A DNA stretch of 64,000 nt from Escherichia coli (GCF_009931435.1 NZ_CP043414.1), one strand, 5' to 3'; shown: positions 25,601 to 28,600, numbered from the stretch's first letter. A program made the numbers.

Positions 25601-28600
25601 TTACCAAAGAGGATATTCTGGGTTTCCTGGCTGTAAGAAATGCGAATGGCATGACGGGGATGGCGCATGCTATGTCTTATGGTCATGTGGAAATAGTGAA
25701 GGCCATGCTGGACCGTCTCTGCTCGATGAAGGGGGAGTTTAATATTACCAAAGACTATGTCCTCAATAATATACTGGCTTCAAAAAACGGCAACGGCTGG
25801 ACAGGGATATCTTTAGCCATAGCGCACGGACATGTGGAAATACTGAAGACCATACTGGACGCGCTCCCCATGCTGAATGATAATTTTGACATTACCGGCG
25901 CGGATATACAAAAGTTTCTGTTTGCAAAAATCGACGAAGACATCTCGGGTTGGACCAAAGGTATGGACAGAGGGAATAAGGACAAACTGATAAGCATGTA
26001 CAAAATGCTGTTCGATAACATACTGATGGATAATAAGTCAGATATTCCTGTTGATTTGCTGAGGGAATTAAATATTGTCAGCCATATTGTATTGACAGAA
26101 ACTGGAAAACCAAAAACAGACGAAATAGCAAGGCAGTCTGAAACCAGACTCACCTACGGACAACTCCGGCAATGGAGTGAACCGTGTGTACGGCGGGCGG
26201 CCAGGAGTTTAGAGGATTACTGTCGGAACCTAAACATTAATGTGGACACTGTCAAACCCTACCTGACCCCAGACGGGCTTACTCCCCTCGGCGTAGAGAT
26301 GCGGGATAATGTAAAAGTGCCGGGGCTCACTGTTGTGGAGTAAGGTCCTGCACATCCCGTGGCCCCCTGCATGGCTATAGCATGGAAAGCGGAAGAAAAA
26401 GCGCAATGAGGTCGTAGGACGAACGGTTCGGGGAAGGCTGAAGAGTACGTATCTGGTCCTGAAGACCGGATAAACCTTCATCGGTCCAACGTTTAAGCCA
26501 CTTGTAGCTCGTGGCAGGAGAAATGCCGTAGTGACGGACCCTGTAAATAATTCTGTGTAACTGCCCACGATTAAAGGTGGCCGCTCAGGCGGTCACCGTA
26601 TTCGATAATAAATTGTGTGATTCATAGACATCGTTTCAATTTTCTCAGCTCAAGTTCAAGCTGGTTATTCTGTTCCTGTATATGCTCCTCATTGGGCTGA
26701 TAGTTTGCGTGAACGGCATCAGAGTATGGCGTTTTCTTAGCAAGTTCAAAGTAGCCCGCCATCGGAGTTATCAGCCACCCACAGCTGGTCAGGATGTTCT
26801 GCCACGAACTGACGATTCACACAGTCGCCTGCGGCAACGACTTTCCTGCTGACTGTAAACAGAACGACGGTCGGCGGTGAAATAACGGTCTTTGCCCTCA
26901 CCTACGCCATGGCCCAGCGCCCGGCTCATGTCTTACATCACGTTAGTAGCCATCGCTTTCACGCGGGTATCCATTGCGGCGTCGTTCAAAACCATACCTC
27001 CCCAGCCGCAAATACCGGATAACATGATACTTCAACAATAAGATTGGTGCGTGGATGATAGATTGCCAAATAATAATCCATCAAGAAATAATGACAACAA
27101 AAAACATCAAGCATTCCTAATGTTATTTGGCCATATAAAACATTAATAACTCTTGACCTTTCCTGACATTTTCCATATTCGCAATCATATTCTGTTTAGA
27201 CGTTGTTTATAAACATCATGCATAATGAAATCGTCATGTTATTTGGCGATATAAAAAAGTCTTTGAAAATACTCTCTACAACAAGTGCAGTTATAAGCTT
27301 GTTGTGACTGAGCGTCCTTGTGATTTAAAGATATTATCGTTCTTCATCAGATGTAATAACTCAGGAAATTATATTTTCAGGGTGACAGGCTAATCAAGAA
27401 TGATTCTTTTTTATAAGCAATAACCGAATGACTGAATTGTTATATTTCTTTATTCAGCTGCTTAAATATAAACTTTGGAGAATTATGAAACTCAAACATG
27501 TCGGAATGATTGTCGTATCTGTGTTGGCGATGTCTTCGGCTGCGGTTAACGCAGCCGAAGGTGATGAGTCAGTTGCGACCACCGTAAATGGCGGTGTTAT
27601 TCATTTTAAAGGTGAAGTGGTAAATGCCGCTTGTGCGATTGACTCAGAATCAATGAACCAAACGGTTGAGCTGGGTCAGGTCCGTTCTTCTCGCCTGGCT
27701 AAAGCGGGTGACCTCAGTAGCGCTGTAGGCTTCAATATCAAGCTGAATGATTGTGATACCAATGTTTCCAGTAATGCGGCTGTTGCATTCCTTGGGACTA
27801 CTGTCACCAGTAATGACGATACGTTGGCGCTTCAGAGTTCAGCGGCAGGCTCTGCCCAGAATGTCGGTATCCAAATTTTGGACCGTACGGGGGAGGTATT
27901 AATACTGGATGGGGCAACTTTTAGCGCTAAAACTGACTTGATTGATGGCACGAATATACTGCCATTCCAGGCTCGTTATATTGCCCTCGGGCAGTCAGTG
28001 GCCGGTACTGCAAATGCAGATGCGACCTTCAAAGTCCAATACCTATAATTCAGTATTCAGGTGGCTATACGTCATCTGAAATTAAAACAGGGTGTGTGTG
28101 GCATGGCTACTCACACCCGAAAAAATTCATCAATGTTTATCTCATTATTACTAAGGAATGACTTATATTTTGGAACGATATGAAAAAATCATAGAGTATC
28201 TAAACGATTAATAAACAAGGCAGTTAAAATTACTGTGATTTTAAAAATCACTCTGAAGACAATTTTTTATTTCAATAGAGAACCAAGTTTTATTACCAGC
28301 GCATTAAGTCTGGAAACCCGGCCATCCGCCATAGCATTAGCAATATTTACCATTTTCTGATGTGACGGTTTCCCCCGCTTAGCCTATCAACACATGGAGA
28401 ACACATCAGATGCAGACGACTCGTACGCCCTACTCTGTTTCTTTTATGGCGACAGTATTACTTTCATTGATCTTTCTTTGCCATAGTACCATTGCCAATG
28501 CAGCGGTAGCTCTAGGTGCAACTCGTGTAATATTTCCAGCAAATCAGAAACAGGTTTTATTGCCTGTCACGAATAATGATCCTGCCAGTGTCTATCTTAT

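What the first reader, a model, noticed from the sequence alone, without database searches (positions are those of the whole stretch)
27119..27256. Paired 22-bp direct repeats with twin mini-ORFs upstream of the fimbrial operon
The motif (a/c)ATGTTATTTGGC(c/g)ATATAAAA occurs twice, 116 bp apart, in the AT-rich region 230-370 bp upstream of the major subunit gene. Each copy begins a short ORF (MLFGHIKH and MLFGDIKKSLKILSTTSAVISLL). These may be regulator-binding sites, leader peptides or remnants of a duplicated gene start.
Basis: seen in the sequence. Interest (0 to 1): 0.35.

Follow-up and report, generated by a model that had tools for sequence, protein, structure and literature searches.

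The report
Short repeat flanking F9 fimbrial promoter
Two near-identical 22-bp AT-rich segments sit on either side of the already mapped promoter of the E. coli F9 fimbrial operon; they are not small genes, they coincide with previously predicted H-NS silencer sites, and their near-identity is peculiar to one rare lineage, so the finding is ordinary.

Summary
aATGTTATTTGGCcATATAAAA (27119-27140) and cATGTTATTTGGCgATATAAAA (27235-27256) match at 20/22 positions, 116 bp apart, which is beyond chance for this allele (0 of 1000 simulations).

The locus is the F9 (fml/ydeQRST) fimbrial operon. Its promoter was mapped in CFT073 by Wurpel et al. 2014. By homology the transcription start site (TSS) is G27233. 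Copy R2 is therefore +3..+24 of the transcript, and copy R1 lies at -114..-93, upstream of the TSS. Four of that paper's six in-silico H-NS motifs (-111, -103, +8, +14) fall inside the two copies.

The mini-ORFs are artefacts. ORF1 lies upstream of the TSS, neither has a Shine-Dalgarno sequence, indels change the frames between alleles, and some alleles lose the ATGs.

In about 4,240 other E. coli genomes the orthologous copies are only about 16/22 alike, which is chance level. R1 is among the more variable stretches of the region. R2 is conserved, but as part of the promoter core. Only 14 of 5,426 genomes show two detectable copies.

Best reading: these are AT-rich H-NS-type patches bracketing an H-NS-silenced promoter, and their similarity is a lineage-specific accident.

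In passing, I found a perfect PhoP-box consensus at the -35 position, conserved in Citrobacter.

The parts
27119..27140 (+). R1, the upstream copy of the 22-bp repeat, at -114..-93 relative to the inferred TSS. It covers the positions of the published in-silico H-NS motifs -111 and -103.
   Evidence: It is variable among alleles: 27% of columns vary, and the ATG is lost in L083 and L122. A GGCC to GGTC variant occurs within the window lineage.
27235..27256 (+). R2, the downstream copy, at +3..+24 of the f9 transcript (initial transcribed region). It covers the positions of the published in-silico H-NS motifs +8 and +14.
   Evidence: It is nearly invariant among typical alleles (9% variable columns) and invariant in the window lineage.
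27197..27226 (+). Sigma-70 promoter of the f9 operon: -35 TAGACG (27197-27202), 18-bp spacer, -10 CATAAT (27221-27226). The TSS is inferred at G27233.
   Evidence: Promoter scan. It is homologous to the 5'-RACE-mapped CFT073 promoter (TAGTCG-18-CATAAT, TSS G 251 nt upstream of the ATG) in PMC3966885. The G at ATG-251 was verified in the CFT073-type allele, with alignments.
27193..27209 (+). PhoP-box consensus TGTTTA-GACGT-TGTTTA overlapping the -35 (-40..-24), ending 11 nt before the -10.
   Evidence: It is the only match in 64 kb, with 0.01 expected. The hexamers are conserved and the spacer is free among alleles. It is conserved in the Citrobacter sp. JGM124 F9-like locus. The consensus and 'architecture I' geometry are from PMC3335776.
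27150..27168 (+). Conserved element CTCTTGACCTTTCCTGACA (TGAC-N6-TGAC) at -83..-65, between R1 and the promoter.
   Evidence: It is identical in the window, WL297 and MS110-3 and in the K-12-type sequence, all found independently by BLAST. I used it as the neutral anchor for the metagenome scan, so its invariance in those loci is forced.
27059..27073 (-). Partial inverted copy of the repeat core (TAGATTGCCAAATAA, complementary to TTATTTGGCnATaTA at 13/15). It lies in lineage-specific DNA upstream of the homology breakpoint at about 27102.
   Evidence: (I4, I5). Homology with typical E. coli starts at about 27102.
27406..27424 (+). 5'-UTR segment CTTTTTTATAAGCAATAAC (+174..+192), complementary to R2. 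It could form a long-range RNA helix, but the statistical support is weak.
   Evidence: window -16.8 kcal/mol with p=0.034, B2 allele p=0.65. A G-to-A change in two genomes of the window lineage is not compensated.
27395..27408 (.). Palindrome CAAGAAT-G-ATTCTT (+163..+176), next to the position homologous to the published Fur ChIP peak.
   Evidence: The Fur peak lies at CFT073 coordinate 1778955 (supplement of PMC7157518). The CFT073 fmlA ATG is at 1778860, which puts the peak at +157. The Fur-box similarity is weak (12/19).
27485..28048 (+). F9 major subunit gene (fmlA; annotated 'fimA' by PGAP), the first gene of the operon.

Best explanation
The two copies are AT-rich DNA segments on either side of the sigma-70 promoter of the F9 (fml/ydeQRST) fimbrial operon. 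R2 is the first about 22 nt downstream of the transcription start (+3..+24). R1 lies at -114..-93, at the upstream edge of the conserved regulatory region. Neither is a gene. The most likely role of this DNA is as part of the tract bound by the nucleoid silencer H-NS, which is known to bind and repress this promoter. One patch lies upstream and one just downstream of the start site, 116 bp (11.0 helical turns) apart. This geometry would let H-NS bridge across the promoter and occlude or trap RNA polymerase. The near-identity of the two copies is not a conserved requirement. It is a peculiarity of one rare, divergent Escherichia lineage, arising either from an old short duplication that decayed elsewhere or from local homogenisation. 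What is shown: positions relative to the promoter, lack of coding potential, and the conservation pattern. What comes from the literature: the TSS, H-NS repression, and H-NS binding to the promoter fragment in CFT073. What is inferred: that H-NS contacts exactly these two patches and bridges them.
For: The locus is the F9 operon. The published promoter is TAGTCG-18-CATAAT, with the TSS a G 251 nt upstream of the ATG. The same paper shows an H-NS EMSA and derepression in an hns mutant, and predicts H-NS motifs at -111, -103, +8, +14, +57 and +89 (PMC3966885). In the CFT073-type allele those first four positions fall inside the orthologues of R1 and R2. The homologous promoter is found in the window. 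R1 and R2 are 77% and 73% AT within a 70% AT region. The spacing is 115-116 bp, or 10.95-11.05 turns, and no indels occur between the copies in 37 alleles. Not ORFs: ORF1 lies upstream of the TSS, neither has a Shine-Dalgarno sequence, and frames, lengths and ATGs are not conserved. Similarity is lineage-specific: 20/22 in the window against 16/22 (chance level) in the common allele, and only 14 of 5,426 genomes show two detectable copies. R2 is conserved as part of the -83..+24 core, while R1 is no better conserved than its variable surroundings. The motif is not dispersed elsewhere in the genomes.
Against: The H-NS motif is of low specificity. My own crude scan with the recalled consensus gave 7/10-level hits all over the region and singled out only R2 weakly. 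The primers for the 251-bp EMSA fragment are not given, so I do not know whether that fragment contained R1. R1 varies freely, which argues against a sequence-specific site there. F9 is repressed at 37 C and expressed at 20 C, the opposite of the classic H-NS thermoregulation, so other factors must act. Fur ChIP and a PhoP-box-like element show the region has further regulators. A neutral origin with no function for the similarity cannot be told apart from function in this one lineage.
Confidence: 0.5

Rival explanations
1. The repeat similarity has no function at all. R2 is conserved only because it is the initial transcribed sequence of the promoter. R1 is drifting AT-rich DNA that happens, through an old short duplication or a slippage/conversion event in this lineage, to resemble R2.
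For: In the common alleles the two copies are at chance-level similarity (16/22). R1 sits in the variable upstream stretch, with 27% variable columns against 9% for R2. The Citrobacter F9-like promoter keeps the promoter core but has no repeat. Only 14 of 5,426 genomes have two detectable copies.
Against: The 20/22 match is far beyond chance in this allele. Both copies carry G at position 11 where the common alleles carry A in both, which hints at concerted change, although it is a single position. The conserved region begins only about 17 bp upstream of R1 in every lineage, despite different upstream insertions.
Confidence: 0.3
2. R1 and R2 are matched operators for a sequence-specific dimeric or tetrameric regulator that loops the promoter. 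A candidate is one of the AraC-like or other regulators encoded just upstream of F9 in other lineages. Each copy has partial dyad symmetry (TTATTTGG/CCATATAA).
For: The copies are same-face sites 11 helical turns apart, flanking the promoter. The motif has quasi-palindromic character, and a third partial copy lies at 27059-27073. Three different putative regulators are encoded upstream of F9 in different lineages (PMC3966885; AraC-like ECs2114 in PMC7766294).
Against: No intact regulator gene lies next to the operon in this lineage; only IS and hydrolase fragments are present. The paper found no evidence linking those regulators to f9. R1 is not conserved, and the pair is degenerate in 4,240 genomes. 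AT-rich DNA is inherently quasi-palindromic. The motif occurs nowhere else in the genomes. The fit to the NagC/Mlc, Fur and marbox consensus sequences was poor (by inspection; Fur).
Confidence: 0.1
3. R2 acts at the RNA level. The 5' end of the 252-nt leader pairs with +174..+192 to close the leader into a large domain that affects mRNA stability or translation. R1 is irrelevant.
For: The MFE fold of the window leader contains this helix. The duplex is -12 to -17 kcal/mol in the window and -9.4 kcal/mol in common alleles with the same architecture. The partner segment is highly conserved (5% variable columns). A translational fmlA fusion behaves differently from a transcriptional one in EHEC (PMC7766294).
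Against: With the whole leader as the search space, the helix is only marginal in the window (p=0.034) and not significant in the B2 allele (p=0.65). The B2 MFE fold does not contain it. Whole-leader z-scores are -1.1 and -1.6. A G-to-A change in the partner in two genomes, and ATG to ATA in R2 in two alleles, are uncompensated. There is no Rfam match.
Confidence: 0.07
4. The two ATG-initiated mini-ORFs are translated leader peptides.
For: Both begin with ATG. ORF2 starts at +4 of the mRNA and could in principle be read as a near-leaderless message.
Against: ORF1 lies upstream of the mapped TSS. Neither has a Shine-Dalgarno sequence. The ORF1 peptides differ between alleles (MFIAI*, MIYSHINHW*, or much longer), and the ATG is lost in L083 and L122. 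ORF2 is frame-shifted between the window and the common alleles, and the ATG is lost in L133 and L152. Substitutions run at roughly 8 non-synonymous to 3 synonymous.
Confidence: 0.02

Closest known systems
The f9 (fml) promoter of E. coli CFT073 as described by Wurpel et al. 2014 (PMC3966885)
   Same: It is the orthologous locus. It has the same -35/-10 arrangement and TSS, and H-NS motifs were predicted in silico at -111/-103 and +8/+14, i.e. inside the orthologues of R1 and R2. H-NS binding and repression were shown experimentally.
   Different: As far as I read it, the paper does not note that the two sites resemble each other; in CFT073 they are only about 16/22 alike. The window carries a rare allele, about 85% identical in this region, in which the copies are 20/22 identical.
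H-NS repression by sites flanking a promoter (bridging or RNA-polymerase trapping, as described for rrnB P1, hdeAB, proU and bgl; my own knowledge, plus PMC9678765 for the bgl loop)
   Same: It has AT-rich patches upstream and just downstream of the start site, an integral number of helical turns apart, in an H-NS-repressed promoter.
   Different: No footprint or bridging experiment exists for f9. Repression here is at 37 C and is relieved at 20 C.
Pap-type phase switch (two Lrp/Dam GATC site sets 102 bp apart upstream of a fimbrial operon; my own knowledge)
   Same: A pair of similar sites about 100 bp apart lies upstream of a chaperone-usher fimbrial operon.
   Different: There is no GATC anywhere in 27050-27490, and no papI/papB-like genes. 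One copy lies downstream of the TSS.
fimS invertible promoter element of type 1 fimbriae
   Same: The operon is paralogous, and the promoter is flanked by short repeats.
   Different: The repeats here are direct, not inverted. There is no sequence similarity to fimS (best E 0.19), no adjacent recombinase gene in the annotation, and all 18 genomes with this allele have the same orientation.

Membership tests
H-NS-silenced promoter with flanking H-NS sites | AT-rich DNA relative to the genome | tested here: met
   The region 27102-27484 is 70% AT, R1 is 77% and R2 is 73%. The flanking coding DNA is 42-50% AT.
H-NS-silenced promoter with flanking H-NS sites | H-NS binds the promoter DNA and represses it | not testable with these tools
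   This was shown for the CFT073 orthologue by EMSA and by an hns mutant (PMC3966885). The exact fragment is unknown because no EMSA primers appear in Table S1.
H-NS-silenced promoter with flanking H-NS sites | Match of the sites to the high-affinity H-NS motif | tested here: inconclusive
   The paper's Virtual Footprint hits at -111/-103/+8/+14 fall in R1 and R2. My crude consensus scan (consensus recalled from memory) gave only 7/10 in R2, with equal hits elsewhere.
H-NS-silenced promoter with flanking H-NS sites | Sites on both sides of the TSS, in helical phase | tested here: met
   R1 lies at -114..-93 and R2 at +3..+24. The spacing is 115-116 bp, or 10.95-11.05 turns.
Leader peptide / regulatory uORF | The ORF lies within the transcript | tested here: not met
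   ORF1 starts at -113, upstream of the mapped TSS. ORF2 starts at +4.
Leader peptide / regulatory uORF | Ribosome-binding site | tested here: not met
   No Shine-Dalgarno-like sequence lies within 20 nt upstream of either ATG, whereas fmlA has GGAG.
Leader peptide / regulatory uORF | Reading frame and peptide conserved among relatives | tested here: not met
   Among 37 unique alleles there are frame-changing indels, lost ATGs and mostly non-synonymous changes.
Invertible promoter element (fimS-like) | Inverted repeats flanking the promoter, both orientations found in genomes, and an adjacent tyrosine recombinase | tested here: not met
   R1 and R2 are direct repeats. The only inverted partner (27059-27073) matches at 13/15 and is lineage-specific. 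All 18 genomes show one orientation. No recombinase appears in the annotation. There is no similarity to fimS.
Pap-like Dam/Lrp switch | GATC sites inside the paired sites | tested here: not met
   There is no GATC in 27050-27490.
PhoP-activated promoter, architecture I (passing observation, not the finding) | A direct-orientation (T/G)GTTTA-N5-(T/G)GTTTA box 11-12 nt upstream of the -10 hexamer | tested here: met
   TGTTTAGACGTTGTTTA at 27193-27209 ends 11 nt before CATAAT and is the only hit in 64 kb, with 0.01 expected. The definition is from PMC3335776. It is conserved in all alleles and in Citrobacter.
PhoP-activated promoter, architecture I (passing observation, not the finding) | PhoP binding and PhoP-dependent transcription | not testable with these tools
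   I found no paper in the library linking PhoP and F9.

The most novel reading that the evidence does not exclude
In this rare Escherichia lineage the two copies have been kept, or made, nearly identical because they act as a matched pair of operators 11 helical turns apart, with a third partial copy at -174..-160. An unidentified sequence-specific regulator would bind them and loop the f9 promoter. This would add a lineage-specific switch on top of H-NS silencing and the candidate PhoP activation.
Probability: 0.08. Interest if true: 0.4.

Novelty: already known. Interest (0 to 1): 0.12.

Why it matters
It matters little. The promoter, its start site and its H-NS control are published, and the two copies coincide with already predicted H-NS motifs. 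The useful outcomes are negative or incidental. The mini-ORFs can be dismissed. The repeat is a lineage-specific curiosity rather than a conserved regulatory design.

The regulatory region does, however, hold a conserved PhoP-box-like element at the -35 position. If real, it would link F9 fimbriae, an adhesin of uropathogenic and enterohaemorrhagic E. coli expressed outside the 37 C host, to Mg2+/PhoPQ signalling.

Tried and rejected
1. fimS relic or invertible element: blastn of the F9 upstream region against the fimE-fimA spacer of L057 gave only noise (best E 0.19). All 18 genomes with this allele are collinear.

2. 116-bp tandem duplication: there is no residual similarity downstream of the core (p=0.7-0.9). 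Upstream there is only a 13-nt match, confined to the window allele.

3. Duplicated gene start: blastn-short of 27096-27330 against the whole window found only R1/R2 and random 11-14-mers. The ORF2 peptide resembles no N-terminus in the operon.

4. Fur box: the best match is 12/19, at chance level. The published Fur ChIP peak maps to +157, not to R1 or R2.

5. Known RNA family: there is no Rfam hit above noise.

6. R2:+174..+192 RNA helix: it is not significant in the common allele.

7. Dispersed motif or regulon: a 33-nt R2 probe finds at most two places per genome, both in this locus.

8. Outgroup to polarise the change: the genome-contig scan returned only one true orthologue outside Escherichia (Citrobacter sp. 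JGM124). Its R1/R2 equivalents align too poorly to decide whether the window state is ancestral or derived.

9. NagC/Mlc, Lrp, IHF, marbox and GAD-box consensus sequences, compared by eye from memory, gave no convincing fit. These are leads only, not tests.

10. The FlhDC gSELEX peak in the K-12 ydeS-hipA spacer has a different box sequence.

Full report
OBSERVATION. The sequence contains AATGTTATTTGGCCATATAAAA at 27119-27140 (R1) and CATGTTATTTGGCGATATAAAA at 27235-27256 (R2). They match at 20 of 22 positions, 116 bp apart. The repeat finder recovers the pair and extends it without gaps to 45 nt at 76% identity. The 21-nt pattern with up to three mismatches occurs only at these two places in 64 kb, against 0.02 expected. 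In the 383-bp regulatory region no Markov-shuffled replicate out of 1000 reached 20/22.

WHAT THE LOCUS IS. The downstream genes are a chaperone-usher operon. In the 99%-identical strain WL297 and in typical E. coli it is annotated fimA-like subunit, chaperone, usher, ydeS, ydeR, ydeQ, followed by ydeP. This is the F9 (Fml) fimbrial operon. The major subunit ATG is at 27485.

The window carries a rare allele. Only 18 of 5,426 complete E. coli genomes have it at 95% identity or more. About 4,240 have an allele roughly 85% identical in this spacer, with homology starting at about 27102. The whole operon is about 90% identical to the common allele, and the flanking core genes about 94%, so the source is a divergent Escherichia lineage. 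Upstream of 27102 lie lineage-specific fragments of an IS and a hydrolase gene.

POSITION RELATIVE TO THE PROMOTER. Wurpel et al. 2014 (PMC3966885) mapped the CFT073 f9 start site by 5' RACE to a G 251 nt upstream of the ATG. It is preceded by -35 TAGTCG, an 18-bp spacer and -10 CATAAT. They showed derepression in an hns mutant and an H-NS gel shift of a 251-bp promoter fragment. They also listed six in-silico H-NS motifs at -111, -103, +8, +14, +57 and +89.

I verified in a CFT073-type allele (L002) that ATG-251 is that G, and that the first four motif positions lie inside the orthologues of R1 and R2. The window has the homologous TAGACG-18-CATAAT at 27197-27226, with the corresponding G at 27233. 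Hence R2 is +3..+24 and R1 is -114..-93. R1 is therefore not on the mapped transcript, and R2 is its very beginning.

THE MINI-ORFS. Neither ATG is preceded by a Shine-Dalgarno sequence, whereas fmlA has GGAG. I collected 79 F9 loci from metagenomes, using as anchor a 19-mer that lies between the copies, so the retrieval is not biased toward the repeats. These gave 37 unique alleles, which I aligned.

- ORF1 becomes MFIAI*, MIYSHINHW* or a much longer frame, depending on 1-nt indels. Its ATG is lost in L083 and L122.
- ORF2 is frame-shifted between the window and the common alleles. It loses its ATG in L133 and L152.
- Changes in either candidate frame of ORF2 are mostly non-synonymous.

These are not leader peptides. 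Nothing in 27096-27330 resembles a gene start elsewhere in the window, and similarity does not extend beyond the core. A duplicated gene start is therefore also unsupported.

IS THE PAIRING CONSERVED? Both copies are present at orthologous positions in every allele. In the common alleles, however, they read AATG[-/A/T]TTTATAGCCATAT[A/T]A[A/G]C and [C/A]AT[G/A]TTATTTAGCGACAT-AAAA. That is about 16/22 with a gap, and the best ungapped 22-mer repeat in that allele (16) is exactly what shuffles give.

Among common alleles, 27% of R1 columns vary against 9% for R2. The conserved block is -83..+24, of which R2 is the downstream end. Within the window lineage R2 is invariant, while R1 carries a GGCC to GGTC polymorphism in 2 of 5 genomes. 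A 33-nt R2 probe finds two places in only 14 genomes and never more than two, so the motif is not dispersed.

The one true orthologue outside Escherichia (Citrobacter sp. JGM124, 76% subunit identity) keeps the promoter core but has no repeat. Whether the 20/22 state is ancestral or a local homogenisation cannot be decided. The single parallel G/A difference at position 11 of both copies is suggestive but not significant.

MECHANISM. The best-supported reading is that R1 and R2 are two patches of the AT-rich tract (70-77% AT) through which H-NS silences this promoter. One patch lies upstream and one immediately downstream of the start, 11.0 helical turns apart, with no indels between them in 37 alleles. 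This geometry is compatible with H-NS bridging across the promoter, as described for other promoters.

- Shown here: the positions, the composition, the phasing and the lack of coding potential.
- From the literature: H-NS binding and repression.
- Inferred: contact at exactly these patches, and bridging.

There are weaknesses. H-NS motif matches are unspecific. The EMSA fragment is undefined. R1 is poorly conserved.

The main rival, which I rate nearly as likely for the similarity itself, is that the resemblance has no function. A matched operator pair for a specific regulator is unlikely. No regulator gene is adjacent in this lineage, the pair is degenerate in most genomes, and the published work found no link to the variable upstream regulators. 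An RNA-level role for R2, pairing with +174..+192, is predicted in the window allele but is not significant in the common allele and shows uncompensated changes.

OTHER KNOWN SYSTEMS EXCLUDED.
- fimS-like inversion: no similarity, direct rather than inverted repeats, and a single orientation in all genomes.
- Pap-like Dam/Lrp switch: no GATC.
- Fur box: chance-level matches only. The published Fur ChIP peak maps to +157, beside a CAAGAAT-G-ATTCTT palindrome.
- Rfam families: no hit.

NOVELTY AND VERDICT. The promoter, its TSS, its H-NS control and predicted H-NS motifs at these very positions are published. The only new element is that in a rare lineage the two sites are nearly identical. I classify the finding as already known and ordinary, with interest 0.12.

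The most interesting by-product lies outside the finding. A perfect PhoP-box consensus (TGTTTA-N5-TGTTTA) sits at -40..-24, ending 11 nt before the -10. This is the 'architecture I' geometry of PhoP-activated promoters (PMC3335776). It is the only such match in the window, with 0.01 expected. Its hexamers are conserved and its spacer is free in all alleles, and it is conserved in Citrobacter. I found no paper linking PhoP to F9.

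Noticed in passing
window 27193-27209: A perfect PhoP-box consensus, TGTTTA-GACGT-TGTTTA, overlaps the -35 of the mapped f9 promoter and ends 11 nt before the -10. This is the 'architecture I' geometry of PhoP-activated promoters (PMC3335776). It is the only match in 64 kb, with 0.01 expected. The hexamers are conserved and the spacer varies among 37 alleles. The same box-N11-CATAAT module is present upstream of the F9-like operon of Citrobacter sp. JGM124 (L005, 2246-2279). I found no paper in the library linking PhoP to F9.
   Followed up: partly
window 27395-27408 (CFT073 NC_004431.1 about 1778955): The published Fur ChIP peak for fmlA in CFT073 (supplement of PMC7157518) maps to about +157 of the f9 leader. 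It lies next to a 7-1-7 palindrome, CAAGAAT-G-ATTCTTG, which is perfect in the common alleles and 6/7 in the window. The palindrome resembles a Fur box only weakly (12/19).
   Followed up: partly
window 27150-27168: The element CTCTTGACCTTTCCTGACA (TGAC-N6-TGAC) at -83..-65 is invariant across the divergent alleles found independently by BLAST. It is a candidate site for a response-regulator-type activator. The factor is unknown.
   Followed up: no
window 27406-27424 with 27236-27257: The start of the f9 leader (R2) is complementary to +174..+192. This helix closes the MFE fold of the window-allele leader, but it is not statistically supported in the common allele.
   Followed up: yes
window about 27306; L003 4204: The K-12-type deletion that removes the F9 major subunit gene, the chaperone gene and the 5' part of the usher gene begins about 75 nt into the leader. 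K-12 therefore keeps the f9 promoter, both repeat copies and the PhoP-box-like element, fused to the ydeT usher fragment.
   Followed up: partly
window about 24000-27100; L001 1-9130: Upstream of the operon this lineage carries different DNA in place of the hipBA-proximal sequence of typical E. coli. In WL297 the annotation shows filamentous-prophage-like genes (a Zot-domain protein and a secretin), an ankyrin-repeat protein, and fragments of an IS481-family transposase, HTH proteins and an alpha/beta hydrolase. The flanking core genes ydeN, ydeO and safA are only about 94% identical to most E. coli, so the window comes from a divergent Escherichia lineage filed as E. coli.
   Followed up: partly
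L004 (JARKOR010000214.1): A contig of a MAG labelled 'Candidatus Nanosynbacter sp.' carries an E. coli F9 locus. Its major subunit is 98% identical to the window's, with a common-type upstream region. This is almost certainly binning contamination. It also shows that the subunit allele and the promoter allele occur in mosaic combinations.
   Followed up: no
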